The notes below the pieces were generated by a model that made no database searches, had not been told where the DNA came from, and saw nothing but the letters and a program-made list of their open reading frames with translations. A DNA stretch of 47,782 nt from Thermoanaerobaculia bacterium. GTDB lineage: Bacteria; Acidobacteriota; Thermoanaerobaculia; UBA5066. Shown in pieces: positions 38,048 through 45,540 of this stretch (positions are counted from its first letter, which is position 1; each line of letters starts with the position of its first letter). The stretch is from the NCBI GenBank assembly GCA_038245905.1, contig JBBRRY010000030.1, positions 1-47,782 of the forward strand, read 5' to 3'. The translations under genes were made by a program, and so were the position numbers.

Positions 38048-38311
38048 ATGGAATCTCCCGTCGACGAGCGCGCTCCCGTTTTCGGCCACGACCTGCTCTT
38101 GCTCCTCCAGAAGATGGGAGGGAGGGTACGAGCCGAGGATCTCCGCAACGCGGCCGCGGGCGCATTCGGCGAGGACGCCGTATACGCGAACTGTCACGGC
38201 GCCCGCTTCTCGTTCGACGAGGTCCTCGCGTTCTTCGCCTCGAAGGGCAAGCTCGAGCATCTCGACGACGAGGTCTTCCTCGGGTCTGTTCCCGCCTGCT
38301 CCGGCCACTGA
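38048..38311 (+). CDS. YecH/DUF2492-like putative metal-binding protein
   Basis: GHDLL...FGEDAVYANC...FFASKGK...ACSGH pattern. Confidence 0.78.
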   Translation: MESPVDERAPVFGHDLLLLLQKMGGRVRAEDLRNAAAGAFGEDAVYANCHGARFSFDEVLAFFASKGKLEHLDDEVFLGSVPACSGH

Positions 38312-38312
38312 A

Positions 38313-39995
38313 TCAGGGAGAACGTCGGGCCGCGCCGGGCACGGCAAGCGCGGCAACAGCCACCTTGCCGTGGAGAATCTCGCCGGCCTTGACCTGCGCC
38401 TGACGGGACATGTCGATCGACTCGCCGAGGATCCGGGCCATCTCCTGCGGAGCGTGGAAGCCCATTGAATTTTCAGCAGCCACGGTGTCGAGGCGCCACT
38501 GCGCGGCCCGCTGCAGCTCGCCCAGCTCCTTGATCGCCGGGTCCTTCTCCACGATCGCGCGCCACGAGGCCAGCAGGTTCGCCTTCGTCTCGGCGGCCAG
38601 CTTCTTCTCCTGGTCCTCCTTGCCGAGCTTCTGGAAGTCCGCGCTCTTCTCCAGTGAATCCTTCGCCTTCGCGGCGGCGCCCGCGCGGTTCTGGTCGTCG
38701 TAAGGCTTCCGCACGGCCACGATGGCGTCGATCATCGCGACCGCCGCCTGGCCCGCCCGCGACATGAGGGCGAAGTGACGATCCTGGATCGCCTCGACCC
38801 GGCCCTTCAGCTCCTCGTCGCTGTAGGGGTGGCAGGTCGCGCAGGAGCGGTTGACCGAGAGGAGCGGGCTGCCGACCCAGTGCTCCGAGATCTTCTGGGC
38901 GCCGTCGCGCTTGTAGGGCATGTGGCAGTCGGCGCAGGCCACGCCGCTTCTCGCGTGAATGCCCTGGCTCCACATCTCGAACTCGGGGTGCTGGGCCTTC
39001 AAGACCTCCATGCCGGTCTCGGCGTGCGTCCAGTCCTTGAAACGCTGCCCCTTCACCTGCATGCCGTCGTAGAGGTGCTCCATCTCCTCGACCTTGAGCC
39101 CCTCGGCCCACGGGAAGAAAACGGTCGTGCCCTTGCCGCAGAAATACTCCACGTGGCACTGGCCGCAGACGTAGGAGCGCTTCTCCTGGCGGCTCGCGTC
39201 CACGTTCGGATCGTAGGCGCGTGCGCGGCCGGTCTTGCGCCAGCGCTCGATGCTCGGGAGATGCGGCACCTCGGCGGTGGAAGAGGCCAGCTTCTGGATG
39301 GCGGTGATGAAGGCCGGCCGGGTGATGCGCAGCTCCATCGATCCGGGGACGTGGCAGTCGACGCACGAGACCGGATGGGCCTTGCCGCCGGTGAGCTGTT
39401 CCAGCTGCTTGTGGGTGTCCCAGTAGCTGAGCTCGCTGACCGCCGCCAGGCCCTTCTGGATCTGCTCGGCCTCGCTCGCTTGAGGCGCGGCTTCCTTCCC
39501 GAGCTTCCGGTAGAGCGGCATGATCGAGGCGTGGCAGTGCATGCAGTTGCCCGACTGCTTGTTCTCGGCGGGCACGTTGCGCTTCGTGTTCTCCTGGTCG
39601 AAGAGCATGAAGGCGTGGCCGCGGCGGTCGCGGTAGTCGACCGCGAACAGGTACCCGGCGAAGATCCGTGACAGCCACGGGTCACGCGCGGCCTTCTGGG
39701 GCGGCACGACGCCCTCGGCCCCGCCCCACCCGCCGCCGTACTTCGTGTGGGTCGGCTCGGACGTGCGCTTGTAGCCGTCGAACTCGCGCGGCCAGTTCGT
39801 GCCCCACTTGGCCGGGTCCACGTCGTTCTCCGTCACCTCGACGAGCTTGACGTAGGAGTTCTTCGCTTCCTGCTTTCGCTGGGCGATGTTGACGAGCAGG
39901 GCGGCCACTCCGAGGGCCCCGAGGGCAAAGGCGGCTGCGACGAGGGTGATGAGCAGCCCGCGCTTCTTCGGGGGGGCCGGGTTCTCTGCGGACAT
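38313..39995 (-). CDS. nrfA: Pentaheme ammonia-forming cytochrome c nitrite reductase (CXXCH active-site type)
   Basis: Five heme motifs CMHCH, CVDCH, CGQCH(VEY), CADCH and CATCH, plus KAQHPEFE and [17 protein letters not shown]. Confidence 0.93.
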
Positions 39996-40036
39996 GAGGT
40001 GCTCCTTCTTGGGCGTTGTGGCGTCGGAGATGGTGC

Positions 40037-40495
40037 TCAGCGGGCGTGGCCGACAGAAGCGTGGCAGCGGACGCAGGAGACGTCGCCGCCATGCGTTATC
40101 GAATCCACTAGCTCGGAGTGGCAGCGGCGGCAGTTGGCCTCGACGACTGCCGAGCTTTCGGGCCGGGCCCGGATGACGTCCGGATAGCCGCCGAGCGTGA
40201 AGGCGAGGGAGTGGTGCCAGCCGTTCAGGGCCTTGACGACGTATTTCGAGATCAGGCCGTCCGGCGTGTGGCAGTCGTTGCAGGTCGCGACGTTGTGATG
40301 AGGAGCGGTCTGCCAGCCGGCGTAGTGCGCGCTCATCGCGTGACAGTTGTTGCACGTGGCGGGATCGTTCCCCATGTAGGAAGAGCCCTTCGCGTAGTAG
40401 AAGGCGTAGCCCGCCATCCCGAATGCGAGGCCGGCCGCGGCGGCTGCGAGCGTCAACGCGACCCCAACGAGAGAAAAGCCGCGGCTCGTCGTCAT
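40037..40495 (-). CDS. nrfH: Tetraheme cytochrome c nitrite reductase small subunit (quinol dehydrogenase)
   Basis: One TM segment; CNNCHAM, CNDCH, CRRCH and CVRCH motifs. Confidence 0.93.
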
Positions 40496-40514
40496 GAACG
40501 CCCTGAATCCACGG

Positions 40515-43500
40515 TCACGGACGGAATCCGTTCGCGACGAGAGGCTTCGCGTTCGTCTGGGGCACGTGGCAGGCCGTGCAGACGTACCGGCTGCCCGCGA
40601 TCTCGGCGCGCTTCACGGCCGGAGCGTTTCTAAGGTCGACGTAGTGGCTCGCCGGGATTGGCACGGGGCCGCCGGGCTCGGGCTTGTCGAGGGCGTGGCA
40701 CGTCAGGCACGCGTTGTCGGCCCTGGTGATCGGGAGGATGCCGTCGACCGTGTGCGGAATGAGCGGCGGTGCGGAGGCGAACAGGCGCGGAAGGAGCTTG
40801 CCGTCGCCGGGGTCCTTCGTCACGTACTCGTAGGATTTCGGGGCGGGGACGCCCGTGACGGCGGATTTTTCGAGGCCGAGCGTCTTGTCGGCAACGCCCT
40901 TCGTCTCCCCGGCCCCCGCGCCCGCCGTGAAGAAGAACGCGAAGAGGGCCGCGGCCACGACTTTCGTGACCTTCACGGCGCACTTCTTGAAATCGGTTTG
41001 CTTCGAGATCGGGCACGTGGCGTCGAGGGTGATCTTGTTGATGAGGATCGACTCGTCGAACCAGGGAACGTACACGAGGCCGCGCGGCGTCCTGTAGCGG
41101 CCGGCCGTCTCCACGGCCACCTGGATCTTCCCGCGGCGCGACTCGATCCAGGCGACGTCGTTCCGCTTGAGGCCGCGCTGGGCGGCGTCTTTCTCGTGCA
41201 TGTAGAGGAGCGCGGCCGGCATGGCCGCGTGGAGCTCCGGAACACGCCGCGTCATCGTCCCCGAGTGCCAGTGCTCCAAGACACGGCCCGTAGAGAGCCA
41301 CAGGTCGTACACGGCGTCCGGGATCTCGGGCGGCGCCGCGTACGGGCGGAAGAAAATCTTCGCCTTGCCCGCGAGGGCGACTTTCGCGGGATCCGTGACC
41401 TTCTCGAGGTCTCCCTTCGGGAGCGCCTTCATGGCCTTCCCGTAGAAGTCGAAGCCGCTGCCCTTTCTCGCGTAGGGGTCGTAGGCTTCGTTGAAGCGCC
41501 AGAGCGTCTCCTTGCCGTCGACGACCGGCCACCTAAGGCCGCGCACGTCGTCCGCCATGTAGCGGTCGAAGGGCGCGAGATCGTGCCCGTGCCCGCGCCC
41601 GAAGCCGGCGTACTCCTCGAAGAGGGCCTTCTCGGGGAACCACGCGGCGCCGAGCTGGGCGGCGGTCGCGTTTGCGTGTCCCTTCGCGACGGGATCCGGC
41701 CAGAGCACCTTCTTGTTCGCGGGCGTGGCGAAAAGAACGTCGTAGAGCGTGCTGTCGGGCGAGTGGCCGAGCGCCGCGGCGCCTTCGAGGATCGAGGGGA
41801 GCCTTCCGTCCGTGAAGCCCTCGGCCTTCAGGCCCGGGAGAGGCTGCTCGCCCCAGACCTCGCGCAGCTTGAACCGCTTCGAGAACTCGAGAATCTGCCA
41901 GAGGTCGGTCTTCGCGTCGCCCGGCGCGGGGACCTGCTGCCGCCAGAGCTGCGTGCGGCGCTCGGAGTTGCCGTAGCCGCCCCATTTCTCGAAAATCATC
42001 GCGCTCGGCAGGATCAGGTCGGACACCTTCGCGCTGATACCCGGGTAGGCGTCCGACGTGACGAGGAACGTGCCCGGCTGCCGCGCGGCGGCGAGCCAGT
42101 GGTTGTTGTTCGCGGTGGACTGAAACGGGTTCGTGACCTGGATCCAGAGCCACTTGAGCTTCCCGTCCTCGAGGTCCCGCATCATTTCTGTGATGTGGCT
42201 CCCGACCTTCGGGTTGATCGTCTTCTGCGGGAGCTTCCAGTGCTCCTCGGCGTGGGCGCGGTGCTCGGGATTGTCGACCGTCATGTCGGCCGGGAGGCGG
42301 TGCGCGAACGTGCCGACTTCGCGCGCGGTGCCGCACGCGGACGGCTGGCCTGTGAGCGAGAAGGCGCCGCTGCCCGGCTTCGCCTGCTTGCCCGTGAGGA
42401 GGTGGACCATGTACGCCTGCTCGTTCACCCACGTCCCGCGCGTGTGCTGGTTGAAGCCCATCGTCCAGTACGACACGGCCTTGCGCTTCGGGTCGGCGTA
42501 GAGGTTGGCCAGCTCCTTGAGCTTTCGCTTGTGCTCTTCGAGCGGCTCGTCCGCGTCGCCCCTCGTGAGGCTGGCGACGAAGTCGAGCGTGTAGGGCTCG
42601 ACGGCCTTCTTGAAGTCCTCGAAGGTGATGAGCCAGTGGGCAGCCGCTCCGGCGGCGTCCTTCTGCGGGCGCGTATGCGTGACGGAGGGGTCGAGGCCGC
42701 GGCCGATCGCCTCCTCCTTCGTGAGGACGACGGTGCGCTGATGGCTTCGCGTGTCCTTCTCGGAGTCGAGGGCGTGGTCTTCGCCGGGGCGCATCCCGAA
42801 GCCGATGTCGGCGGGGCCAGTCGCGAAGACGCAGTGCTTCTCGACGAAGTCCTTGTCGACAGCGCCGCGCAGGACGATCTCTCTCGCGATGTAGTTCCAG
42901 ATCGCGAGGTCCGTGTTCGGCTTGAAGACGATCTCGGTGTCCGCGCCGGCCGACGTGGGCGTCGTGTACGTCGTGAGGTTGAAGATCCGATACTCGGGGC
43001 GCGCGAGGCGGGCGTCGACGATGCGCGACCAGAGGATCGGGTGCATCTCGGCCATGTTCGCGCCCCACGTCACCACGGCGTCCGTCTTCTCGATGTCGTC
43101 GTAGCAGCCCGAGGGCTCGTCGATGCCGAACGTCTGCATGAAGCCGGTGACGGCCGAGGCCATGCAGTGCCGGGCGTTCGGGTCGAGGTTGTTGCTGCGC
43201 CAGCCCGCCTTCACGAGCTTCGCGGCCGCATAGCCCTCCATGATCGTGTACTGGCCGGAGCCCATCACGCCCACGCCGCTCGGGCCGAGCTCCGCATGAA
43301 CCCTCTTGAACTGAGCTTCCATCTCCTGGAACGCGCGCTCCCAGCTCACGGGGAAGAAGTCGCCGTTCTTGTCGAACTTCCCGTCCTTCATGCGGAGGAG
43401 GGGCTTCGTGAGGCGGTCCTCGCCATAGAGGATCTTCGCGTTCGCGTAGCCCTTTATGCAGAGGAGGCCGCGGTTCACGGGCGCGTCCGGGTCACCCTTC

Positions 43501-43715
43501 ACGGCCACGACTCGTTCCGCTTTCGTCCCGACGAGAATCCCGCAGCCTGTCCCGCAGAAGCGGCAGACGCTCTTGTCCCAGGCCACGCCCGCATCCAGGG
43601 GCGCCTGCCCGGCGGCCGCGAAGGCGTCCTCTGCGACCGGGATTCCCGCGGCGGCGGCCGCCGCGAGCGCGGCGCTGCGCTTCAGAAGCTCCCGGCGTGT
43701 GCTGCTCTGGTTCAT
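40515..43715 (-). CDS. napA: Periplasmic nitrate reductase NapA fused in frame to diheme NapB
   Basis: Tat motif [16 protein letters not shown] [4Fe-4S], NARHCMAS Mo ligand, and NapA C-terminus [19 protein letters not shown]. Continues without a stop into PPLIPH...CLTCH...SHY...[11 protein letters not shown] (NapB). Confidence 0.93.
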
Positions 43716-43969
43716 GTTCCCTCCGCGTCTTCCTCGAGATCCCCGAAGTAATGGCAGACGAGCTCGGCCGAGAGAAGACCCGGCAAGGCCTGGATGAGCC
43801 TCAGGCCGTCCTCCTGCTCTTCGGTTGTCCCGGATTCCTGCGTGACCACGATGCGGCCCCGGGCCGCGTCCGTGAACTGGACCTCGACGCCGGGCAGAAC
43901 TCCGAGCCGCTGCACGCCTTCCGCGAGCCCCGAGGGCGCGACGTGGACGACGATGCTCGAGATATTCAC
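43712..43969 (-). CDS. napD: NapD chaperone (start could extend to 44020)
   Basis: NISSIVV...LPGVEV...GRIVVTQE...[12 protein letters not shown] pattern. ATGA overlap with napA. Confidence 0.88.
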
Positions 43970-43979
43970 AGCGTTCGAG

Positions 43980-44020
43980 ATCTTAGTCCCCGGGTAGGGT
44001 CCCCGTATGACGGATGTCAT
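43980..44020 (-). promoter_or_regulatory. Putative CRP/FNR-family class II promoter of the nap-nrf operon
   Basis: Palindrome ATGAC-N4-GTCAT (44007-44020) centred about 41 bp upstream of the start site implied by the -10 TAAGAT (43985-43980). Confidence 0.6.
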
Positions 44021-44106
44021 GGACCTTTAGTAGCAGCCATCACCACCAAAGGTATTACTGGAAGTACATTGTTTACAATGTTTACGATGTATGCAGTGGG
44101 AAATCG

Positions 44107-44138
44107 TTGACAGTCTTATAGAAAGTGTCGACACTTTC
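44107..44138 (+). promoter_or_regulatory. AbiE promoter with perfect 18-bp palindromic operator
   Basis: TTGACA (44107-44112)-17 nt-GACACT. GAAAGTGTCGACACTTTC (44121-44138) overlaps the -10. Confidence 0.75.
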
Positions 44139-44142
44139 CCAC

Positions 44143-44742
44143 ATGAACAGCCGGGAGAGGGTAGCGAAGCTCGCGAAGGGGCGCGGCGTGTTCAAGGCGA
44201 GTGAGGTCCATGACCTCGGCATCCACACGCAGGTCCTGACCCGGCTCGAAAAGGAAGGCGTGATCGAGCGCGTCGCCCGTGGCCGGTACAGGCTCGCTCT
44301 CAGCGAGGTCACGGAGCACCACGGCCTCGCCCTAGCTGCCAGCGTCGCGCCGAAGGGCGTCGTGTGCCTCCTCTCGGCCCTTCGCTTCCACGACGTCACG
44401 ACTCAGAACCCATTTGAGGTCTGGCTCGCGGTCGAGCGGCGTTCGCGCATGCCTCGCACCCCGTACCCCCCGCTTCGCGTCTTTCGATTCTCGGGCCGCG
44501 CCTTCACGAGCGGAGTAGAGACGCACAAGATCGAGGGCCAGCGTGTCCGCGTCTACAGCCTCGCGAAGACGATCGCCGACCTCTTCAAGTATCGAAACAA
44601 GGTTGGGATCGACGTGGCGGTCGAGGCGCTGAGTGAGTCGTGGCGCGCCCGGAAGATTAGGCCAAGCGACATCGATCCGTACGCCCGGATCTGCCGTGTC
44701 AAGAAGCTCATCCGGCCCTACCTCGAGGCGCTCACCGCATGA
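44143..44742 (+). CDS. Type IV toxin-antitoxin AbiEi-family antitoxin
   Basis: N-terminal wHTH (LTRLEKEGVIERVARGRYRL), VVCLLSAL.FH, KTIADLFKYRNKVGIDVAVEAL. Confidence 0.9.
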   Translation: MNSRERVAKLAKGRGVFKASEVHDLGIHTQVLTRLEKEGVIERVARGRYRLALSEVTEHHGLALAASVAPKGVVCLLSALRFHDVTTQNPFEVWLAVERRSRMPRTPYPPLRVFRFSGRAFTSGVETHKIEGQRVRVYSLAKTIADLFKYRNKVGIDVAVEALSESWRARKIRPSDIDPYARICRVKKLIRPYLEALTA

Positions 44743-45540
44743 GCGGGGCGGACACGGCTCTGGCTCAGTCGATCCAGACGCGCATCGTGAGCCACGCGCT
44801 GGGCGGGCGAGACGGTCCGCACAACTCGCGACGCCGACCTGCTGGGCTATGGCGTACTCACCCAGGACGAAATCATCAGGATCTTCCGGGAGATCGCCTC
44901 GGCGCCGAGCATCCCGGGTGACGGCGTTGTGTTCCTGCCAGAGACCGTGAGGGTGTCGCCCATCCAGGAGGCTGACCAGTACGGCGGCGAACGAGTGACG
45001 TTCGAAGGCCGACTCGGCAAGGTGAAGCTTCCGCTACGGGTGGATGTCGGGATCGGCGACGCCGTGTACCCGCCGCCCGAATGGCTGGAGTACCCGTCGC
45101 TCCTGAACGTCCCGAGGCCGGTGCTTAGGGCCTATCAACCTGAGACCTCGATCGCGGAAAAGGTCCATGCGATGGTCGATCGGGGCGAAACGAATAGCCG
45201 CATGAAGGACTACTTCGACATTGCCGAGCTCGCTCGCATCCGCGTGTTTGACGGCAGCGCGCTCTCCCGGGCCCTCCGAGAGACCTTTGAACGACGGGGG
45301 ACGCCAGTCCCGGCTTCGCCCAAAGGTCTGTCAATCGCATTCGGCCGCGATCCCGAAAAGCAGCGGCAGTGGGAGGGATTCGTGACGAGGAACCGGGTGA
45401 GCGCGACGAGGGGATTCGAAGTCTCGGTCATGAGCGTGGCCCGGTTTGTTCAGCCGGTGCTGATCGCGGTTTCGAGGGGCGAATCTCTCATCAGGAGTTG
45501 GCCTGCGGGCGGCCCATCGTGGATCCCGGAAGGCGAGTAG
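44739..45540 (+). pseudogene. AbiEii-family nucleotidyltransferase toxin, frameshifted by a deletion near 44799
   Basis: MSGADTALAQSIQTRIVSHA in one frame. WAGETVRTTRDADLLG...DVGIGD...AEK...NSRMKDYFD in another frame from 44800. The ERxLxRL...KG segment is absent. Confidence 0.85.

What the first reader, a model, noticed from the sequence alone, without database searches (positions are those of the whole stretch)
38313..44020. Minimal single-operon DNRA module napD-napAB-nrfH-nrfA with no napC/napG/napH
Seen: all genes are co-oriented with overlaps or gaps of about 40 bp or less, and NrfH is the only quinol-oxidising component in the operon. Established: Nap normally draws electrons from NapC or NapGH, and NrfH belongs to the NapC/NirT family. 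Inference: one NrfH may feed both reductases, possibly in a nitrate-to-ammonium supercomplex that limits nitrite release.
Basis: partly seen in the sequence, partly recalled or inferred. Interest (0 to 1): 0.7.

Follow-up and report, generated by a model that had tools for sequence, protein, structure and literature searches.

The report
Nitrate-to-ammonium operon with fused NapAB
Four adjacent genes encode a nitrate reductase and an ammonium-forming nitrite reductase behind one likely control site; the shared-electron-donor idea is untested and has precedents, but the two nitrate reductase subunits are read as one protein that keeps an internal export signal and is likely cut in two.

Summary
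The operon is real: napD, one napA-napB ORF, nrfH, nrfA; no napC, napG or napH found in this 96%-complete genome. The shared-NrfH/supercomplex reading is possible but unsupported. The single-operon layout occurs in 4 of 10 nap-bearing genomes of the genus. One family member has the same Nap and no NrfH. 22 of 27 loci of this NapA type have no nrfHA next to them. The genome holds other quinol oxidisers (five Rieske/cytochrome b clusters, NrfD-type complexes, an ImcH-like cytochrome) and narG. Qcr-fed Nap, and NrfH or CymA feeding both enzymes, are in print. What ties nap to nrf in every layout is a palindrome, ATGAC-N4-GTCAT, likely a Crp/Fnr-type operator; its left half is the 'ATG' taken as napD's start. 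The unusual part is the fusion. It is intact in 8 genomes, bridged by contigs from two studies, and arose at least twice. It keeps a full signal peptide at the junction (signal peptidase I site or lipobox), using NapA's last lysines as its charged end: likely a Tat-plus-Sec polyprotein. The scan noted a similar operon on another genome and this fusion as a separate finding.

The parts
44007..44020 (.). Palindrome ATGAC-N4-GTCAT, likely operator of a Crp/Fnr-family regulator
   Evidence: 1 match in the window against 0.04 expected, 4 of 100 shuffles reach 1; exact copy 51-52 nt before the napD start in 7 of 12 napD loci examined; 5 of 7 exact genomic copies lie at gene edges before nitrogen-oxide genes, the reversed control pattern occurs 0 times. 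Regulator assignment is inference.
43980..43985 (-). TAAGAT, -10-like hexamer 21 nt behind the palindrome
   Evidence: Same hexamer at 21-22 nt in all 7 loci with the exact palindrome; promoter function inferred.
   Evidence: PF03927 aa 18-92 of the long form; relatives begin at the same place.
40515..43715 (-). Single 1066-aa ORF: twin-arginine signal, NapA (aa 5-919), internal signal peptide, NapB
   Evidence: nearest solved structure is the 924-aa NapA 9pxt_A.
40911..40973 (-). Internal signal peptide at the junction (aa 915-935): KVTK, an uncharged hydrophobic run, then A-G-A before G-E (predicted signal peptidase I site)
   Evidence: Read by eye from the sequence, no predictor available; 16 distinct h/c-regions in fused homologues: 11 end in L/F-x-A-C, 5 are signal peptidase I type.
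40518..40910 (-). Predicted mature NapB, diheme cytochrome c (CxxCH at aa 1003 and 1046)
   Evidence: PF03892; matches to 3ml1_B, 1ogy_B, 1jni_A.
40037..40495 (-). nrfH, membrane-anchored tetraheme quinol dehydrogenase
   Evidence: TIGR03153 over cut-off; CxxCHxM at heme 1 and Lys88 align with D. vulgaris NrfH 2j7a_C, His95 at the place of its Asp89 (the role of those residues is from PMC-library passages and recall).
38313..39995 (-). nrfA, pentaheme nitrite reductase of the all-CxxCH type
   Evidence: PF02335; heme 1 motif CMHCH; RGH, CHVEY and QHPE stretches align with solved NrfA 6v0a.

Best explanation
This is a nitrate-to-ammonium operon made of two separately movable modules (napD-napAB and nrfHA) behind one likely Crp/Fnr-type operator, in which NrfH likely serves NrfA, NapAB likely draws electrons mainly from quinol-oxidising complexes encoded elsewhere, and the fused NapA-NapB chain is likely cut at its internal signal peptide. 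Shown: gene order, the fusion, the conserved junction motif, the palindrome and its positions, absence of napC/G/H matches, presence of other quinol oxidisers. Inferred: (1) one transcript from the napD promoter; (2) NapA is made first and held in the cytoplasm by NapD while the internal signal sends apo-NapB through Sec, where hemes are attached; (3) signal peptidase I (here) or Lgt plus signal peptidase II (lipobox relatives) frees NapB; (4) NapA, after its short hydrophobic tail is released or trimmed, takes up its cofactors and leaves by Tat, giving a 1:1 NapAB; (5) NapB is reduced by a Rieske/cytochrome b or NrfD-type complex, with NrfH at most a side route.
For: Modules: in the 10 nap-bearing genomes of the genus the layout is co-oriented in 4, back-to-back in 4 (one with two genes between), unlinked in 2; nrfH is over cut-off in 19 of 29 genus genomes, nap in 10 of 29. 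Operator; in back-to-back relatives one palindrome has a -10-like hexamer on each side. Donor: among 27 long-type napAB loci with 2 kb or more on both sides, 0 have napC, 0 napH, 2 a napG/F-like match, 5 nrfHA; 49 of 51 short-type loci have napC. G031 (96% complete) has fused napAB, no NrfH, no NapH-length match. Three Gallionellaceae-type genomes with this napAB have no PF03264 match but all have an NrfD-family gene. All 11 genomes of the family with this Nap have 2-7 cytochrome b genes; the window's genome has 5 and 4 NrfD-family genes. Qcr-dependence of the same long NapA type in C. jejuni: PMC6195509. Fusion: in frame in 7 of 10 genus genomes plus G031 and one metagenome locus; one more genome has the same junction with one extra base; 2 are split. 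Contigs of two studies cross the junction without gaps. One origin for all fusions is rejected (AU p 4e-8). Junction: Cys and the Ala before it are kept in 11 of 11 lipobox-type h/c-regions; 14 substitutions among nine 16-aa regions bring in no charged, amide or proline residue (neutral chance 0.008 to 0.08); close SPase I variants keep A-x-A with x = G, R, W.
Against: No expression, genetic or biochemical data. Every nap-bearing genome of the genus has nrfH and 8 of 10 keep it adjacent, which fits a functional tie. The only Rieske/cytochrome b cluster that shares the palindrome and sometimes adjoins nap is the nosZ-linked one, and it is found in only 5 of those 10 genomes. Two of the three Gallionellaceae-type genomes gave no cytochrome b match (completeness not given). 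No direct evidence of cleavage. RseP, the protease that might trim NapA's tail, is over cut-off in 9 of 11 genomes but not in the window's own. An in-frame GTG lies within the last NapA codons in 9 of 9 intact fusions examined (13 of 30 split high-GC loci as background), so an internal start is not excluded. In C. jejuni NapH remains essential even with Qcr, so how this Nap does without it is unexplained.
Confidence: 0.45

Rival explanations
1. Donor rival: NrfH is the main quinol dehydrogenase for both NapAB and NrfA, as CymA is in Shewanella, with or without a stable supercomplex.
For: nrfH in 10 of 10 nap-bearing genus genomes, adjacent in 8; nrfHA also adjoins this napAB in two distant lineages (L078/L079, L127); no napC/G/H in the genome; residual NrfH-to-NapB transfer in C. 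jejuni (second-hand in PMC6195509 and PMC3475470).
Against: G031 and three Gallionellaceae-type genomes have this Nap without NrfH; 22 of 27 long-type loci lack adjacent nrfHA; nrfH is common in the genus without nap (9 of 19 carriers); G029 and G030 put nrfHA beside a Nap that has its own napG/H, so adjacency does not imply a shared donor.
Confidence: 0.3
2. Donor rival: the ImcH-like NapC/NirT-family cytochrome of the porin-cytochrome cluster on contig C12 feeds a periplasmic cytochrome pool that reduces NapB.
For: A matching PF03264 hit in a roughly 490-aa frame is found in nearly all genomes of the family searched, G031 included; it lies with DmsE- and MtrC-like decahemes; ImcH is a NapC/NirT-family quinol oxidiser found in Acidobacteria (bioRxiv 2023.05.03.539133, passages).
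Against: Never adjacent to nap in the loci read; no palindrome at that cluster among the 7 exact sites; absent from the three Gallionellaceae-type genomes. The ImcH label rests on domain layout, not on a family model.
Confidence: 0.15
3. Fusion rival: NapB is translated on its own from an in-frame GTG inside the end of napA, and this keeps the signal peptide under selection; the long product is a by-product.
For: A GTG at one of two valine codons before the hydrophobic run in 9 of 9 intact fusions with DNA; in G031 it has a Shine-Dalgarno-like stretch (-6.5 kcal/mol).
Against: The GTG is not at one fixed codon; pairing energy is -0.5 to -0.6 in the eight genus-level cases, against -10.0 for napA and -7.3 for nrfA; the split sisters carry the same GTG; no stop codon means all NapA still carries the tail.
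Confidence: 0.2
4. Fusion rival: the chain is not cut; the hydrophobic run is a linker or membrane anchor of a covalent NapAB exported whole.
For: Simplest reading of one ORF; selection for hydrophobicity alone would also fit an anchor.
Against: The invariant lipobox Cys with L/F at -3 and Ala at -1 (11 of 11) and A-x-A in the others are cleavage signatures; a true transmembrane segment would leave NapA and NapB on opposite sides of the membrane (inference); both independent fusions join at the same point and keep the whole h- and c-region.
Confidence: 0.2

Closest known systems
Campylobacter jejuni / Wolinella succinogenes Nap plus NrfHA (PMC6195509: passages and Discussion part 1 of 2 read; Pittman 2007 seen only as cited)
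   Same: Long NapA type (best PDB match 924 aa), no NapC, NrfHA with all-CxxCH NrfA in C. jejuni (PMC12285233 passages), Qcr feeds Nap, NrfH gives residual transfer to NapB.
   Different: They have essential napG/H; napA and napB are separate genes; nap and nrf are not one operon here described.
Shewanella CymA (PMC12285233, passages)
   Same: One NapC/NrfH-family protein serves nitrate and nitrite reduction.
   Different: CymA is a free hub; here the protein is a true NrfH encoded directly before nrfA, and other quinol oxidisers are present.
Sporomusa ovata nitrate reduction island (PMC12780646, passages)
   Same: nap and nrfHA clustered and induced together.
   Different: Has napGHC, no NapB fusion.
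Bradyrhizobium japonicum FbcH polyprotein (recalled; paper not held)
   Same: One ORF for two redox subunits with an internal signal peptide that releases a c-type cytochrome.
   Different: The first part there is a Sec membrane protein; here it is a folded Tat substrate, and most relatives carry a lipobox rather than a signal peptidase I site.
Actinobacterial Rieske protein targeted by Sec then Tat (PMC3471235, outline and short abstract only)
   Same: One chain uses both export routes.
   Different: Order reversed (internal twin-arginine after Sec helices) and no cut into two subunits.

Membership tests
Periplasmic nitrate reductase NapA | Twin-arginine signal, 4Fe-4S motif, NapA family model over cut-off | tested here: met
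   TIGR01706 1310.6 bits (cut-off 930.55), PF04879; STRRELLK in the sequence.
NapB | Two CxxCH motifs, PF03892, own Sec signal peptide | tested here: met
   the signal peptide is internal.
NapB | Encoded as a separate gene | tested here: not met
   No stop between napA and napB.
NrfHA | nrfH (tetraheme, CxxCHxM, TIGR03153) directly before a pentaheme nrfA | tested here: met
NrfA | CxxCK at the catalytic heme | tested here: not met
   CMHCH; the all-CxxCH subgroup is known and active (PMC12285233).
Classical nap operon | napC and/or napGH in the operon or genome | tested here: not met
   genome 96.4% complete.
CymA-like shared quinol dehydrogenase | Needed for both nitrate and nitrite reduction | not testable with these tools
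   Needs mutants.
Qcr-coupled Nap | Rieske/cytochrome b complex present | tested here: met
   5 cytochrome b genes with Rieske neighbours; 11 of 11 family genomes with this Nap.
Qcr-coupled Nap | Nitrate reduction depends on that complex | not testable with these tools
   Needs mutants or inhibitors.
Signal-peptidase-processed polyprotein | Internal n/h/c signal peptide conserved at the junction | tested here: met
   16 of 16 distinct junction regions; read by eye.
Signal-peptidase-processed polyprotein | Cleavage shown on the protein | not testable with these tools
   No proteome or RNA data held.
Crp/Fnr regulon | 5-4-5 palindrome about 41 nt before the transcription start and a cognate regulator | tested here: inconclusive
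   Spacing to a -10-like hexamer fits; a Crp/Fnr gene lies behind one copy of the site in this genome and back-to-back with napD in G024; binding untested; the motif differs from the recalled FNR consensus.

The most novel reading that the evidence does not exclude
A bacterial respiratory enzyme made as a Tat-plus-Sec polyprotein: a molybdoenzyme that must fold in the cytoplasm and its cytochrome partner that must cross unfolded are encoded as one chain. It is cut at an internal signal peptide whose charged end is NapA's own C-terminus, in most relatives at an internal lipobox. This arose at least twice, and it sits in an operon where NrfH could also feed it.
Probability: 0.5. Interest if true: 0.75.

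Novelty: new variant of a known kind. Interest (0 to 1): 0.47.

Why it matters
The operon adds sediment and soil Thermoanaerobaculia-type bacteria to likely nitrate ammonifiers. It also shows a widespread minimal nap(D)AB cassette that works without NapC or NapGH, so 'no napC/G/H' should not be read as 'NrfH must be the donor' or 'non-functional'. If fed by a Rieske/cytochrome b complex, this Nap would conserve energy. The fusion matters more. It would be a natural test of how a cell routes two halves of one chain through Tat and Sec, and of whether the lipoprotein machinery can act on a signal 920 residues into a protein. It can be tested in E. coli with one gene. Public records name these 1069-1083 aa proteins simply as NapA or periplasmic nitrate reductase, so napB would be scored as missing.

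Tried and rejected
Assembly artefact for the fusion: rejected. NrfH-NapB complex prediction: no answer, score 0.00, not used as evidence either way. AlphaFold model of the whole ORF: NapA confident, residues 922-1066 below pLDDT 50 because only 9 of 65 rows cover them; uninformative on the junction. Alignment A3 misplaced the NapB-only rows and was dropped. No RNA holder listed. A terminator-like hairpin at 40953-40938, in the junction codons, is at chance level. The nosZ-linked Rieske/cytochrome b cluster as obligatory donor: rejected, 5 of 10 genus nap genomes lack a match. Whether the split genes of G022/G028 are ancestral or re-split: unresolved (AU p 0.22). ATGAC-N7-GTCAT occurs 9 times, all inside genes, and was set aside as coding background. 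Literature: ten full-text searches; the listings and the passages read showed no NapA-NapB fusion, no bacterial Tat-plus-Sec cleaved polyprotein and no ATGAC-N4-GTCAT motif. Most subscription papers are not in the library and no supplements were read, so absence from print is not established.

Full report
Observation. The minus strand carries napD, a 1066-aa ORF, nrfH and nrfA, with a 4-nt overlap and gaps of 19 and 41 nt. Family models identify NapD, NapA followed in frame by NapB, NrfH and an all-CxxCH NrfA. The genome is 96.4% complete. It gives no match for NapG or NapH or for relatives' NapM-like tetrahemes. The NapC/NirT model matches only nrfH and a 484-aa five-heme protein in a porin-cytochrome cluster. 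The closest named homologues are labelled Thermoanaerobaculia. The genome also has narG over cut-off, so this operon is not its only nitrate reductase.

Is it one unit? In this genome probably yes: there is no room for an internal promoter between genes, and the scans found none. Across relatives it is two modules. This Nap is in 10 of 29 genomes of the genus and 11 of 63 of the family. In those 10, nrfHA follows napB in 4 (G000, G022, G024, G028), stands back-to-back with napD in 4 (G001, G002, G021; G014 with two genes between), and lies on another contig with other genes flanking nap in 2 (G015, G019). nrfH is over cut-off in 19 of the 29, including all 10.

What links them is a palindrome. 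ATGAC-N4-GTCAT lies at 44007-44020, once in the window against 0.04 expected. An exact copy stands 51-52 nt before the napD start, followed by TAAGAT, in 7 of 12 napD loci examined. In three back-to-back loci the same copy has a second -10-like hexamer towards nrfH, and G014 has one copy for each gene. G022 and G028 keep a three-mismatch site with a hexamer at the same spacing between napB and nrfH. The window's genome and G024 have none there. Five of the seven exact copies in the genome precede nitrogen-oxide genes: nap, a Rieske/cytochrome b-nosZ operon, an operon ending in a Crp/Fnr gene, and small genes behind norB and behind a RIC-like gene. The reversed pattern occurs 0 times. I infer a Crp/Fnr-type operator. 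Its left half is the ATG read as napD's start; the GTG at 43969 gives the 85-aa protein seen in relatives.

Who feeds NapAB? In C. jejuni, whose long NapA type this is, a Qcr deletion abolishes nitrate respiration, while NrfH is thought to give only the residual growth of a napG mutant (PMC6195509). Among fetched loci with at least 2 kb on both sides, 49 of 51 short-type napAB have napC. Of 27 long-type loci, 0 have napC, 0 napH, 2 a napG/F-like match and 5 nrfHA, three of the five being close kin of the window. These loci are the best 80 plus 80 matches to one query, not a random sample. G031 has the fused Nap, no NrfH and no NapH-length match; its only PF02335 match is partial, in a 618-aa frame. 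Three Gallionellaceae-type genomes with this napAB have no NapC/NirT match; all three have an NrfD-family gene and one has cytochrome b (completeness not given). So this Nap type is found without NrfH. The window's genome offers five cytochrome b genes and four NrfD-family genes, and all 11 family genomes with this Nap have cytochrome b genes. Against this: the one such cluster that shares the palindrome is in only 5 of the 10 genus genomes, and nrfH accompanies nap in all 10. G029 and G030 place nrfHA beside a different Nap with its own napG/H, so adjacency alone says little. I put a Qcr/NrfD-type main donor at about 0.5, NrfH at 0.3, the ImcH-like protein at 0.15. Nothing here speaks for a supercomplex.

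The fusion. The reading frame runs from NapA's last motif into two CxxCH motifs in 7 of the 10 genus genomes, in G031 and in one metagenome locus. G021 has the same junction with one extra base. G022 and G028 have a stop and a separate napB. It is rare: 24 of 191 locus records with the NapA end motif were fused, all from these sources (records overlap), and 3 of the 120 listed proteins (of 1269 hits) carry both domains. Contigs from two studies cross the junction without gaps; one may be the source sample. A tree with all fusions in one clade is rejected (p 4e-8); whether the split pair is ancestral is open (p 0.22).

The junction is a complete signal peptide. NapA's own K/R-V/I-T/S-K supplies the charged end. 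An uncharged run of 15-25 residues follows. Of 16 distinct regions, 11 end in L/F-x-A-C and 5 are of the signal peptidase I kind; the window and its two nearest variants read A-G-A, A-R-A and A-W-A. Among nine 16-residue regions, 14 substitutions introduce no charged, amide or proline residue; the neutral chance is 0.008 or 0.08 depending on whether proline is counted, and the sequences are related. Both origins delete only the stop, the spacer and the start of napB. Established knowledge: NapA folds and binds cofactors in the cytoplasm and leaves by Tat, while c-type hemes are attached in the periplasm to chains that arrive unfolded. A cut between the two solves this conflict. SecA can target a hydrophobic segment far from the N-terminus, and RseP can degrade cleaved signal peptides (PMC9360617, passages). 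RseP is over cut-off in 9 of 11 genomes but was not found in the window's own. Cytochrome c assembly genes are present. An internal GTG start is the main rival: such a codon exists in all nine intact fusions with DNA, but at no fixed place and, outside G031, without a ribosome-binding site. I put cleavage of a polyprotein at 0.6, internal start at 0.2, uncut chain at 0.2. I reached this reading, before one search showed that the scan lists the fusion as a separate finding.

Verdict. The finding as posed is a real operon of known parts, and its headline mechanism is precedented and not the best supported. The parts not found in my ten literature searches are the repeatedly evolved NapA-NapB chain with a retained internal signal peptide and the operator motif. 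Class: new variant of a known kind; interest 0.47.

Noticed in passing
window 44125-45540 (+): AbiEi antitoxin and a broken AbiEii-type nucleotidyltransferase gene (split over ORFs 44739-44921 and 44929-45540) sit directly upstream of the nap promoter; no relative's locus read has them there. A perfect 7-bp inverted repeat (ACATTGT-TT-ACAATGT, 44066-44081) lies between them and the nap palindrome.
   Followed up: partly
G000:C72:2-3898 and C55:9571-10565 (L235, L239): narG over cut-off, split across two contig ends, followed by a narH-like start and preceded by a diheme cytochrome c gene, an unusual neighbour for Nar.
   Followed up: partly
G000:C15:67010-78006 (L240): Operon of a flavin/4Fe-4S oxidoreductase, Rieske protein, cytochrome b, five-heme cytochrome and Sec-type nosZ with accessory genes, behind the same palindrome; adjacent to nap in G001, G015 and G019.
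   Followed up: partly
G000:C12:52082-60969 (L044): Porin-cytochrome cluster (MtrC-like, DmsE-like, 11-heme, cytochrome b, ImcH-like), suggesting extracellular electron transfer.
   Followed up: partly
L040:3113-4726 (G024): The fused napAB ORF is only 538 aa, with large in-frame gaps in NapA; misassembly or decay.
   Followed up: no
L042:4406-11006 (G030), L043:6307-12777 (G029): Other genera of the family pair nrfHA with a different, short NapA plus a tetraheme, napD, napG and napH.
   Followed up: partly
window 38048-38311 (+): YecH/DUF2492-like small metal-binding protein converging on nrfA with a 1-nt gap; also near nap in G015 and G019.
   Followed up: no
window nrfA, about aa 430-490: Long charged helical insertion makes NrfA of this genus 547-563 aa against about 485-499 in other loci; also present in G030, which has the other Nap type, so not tied to the fusion.
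   Followed up: partly
L080, L081, L138, L150, L153, L143, L148, L152: A stand-alone nap(D)AB cassette of the long type, with no napC/G/H beside it, occurs in Gallionellaceae, Holophagaceae, Myxococcota and Methylomirabilis records.
   Followed up: partly
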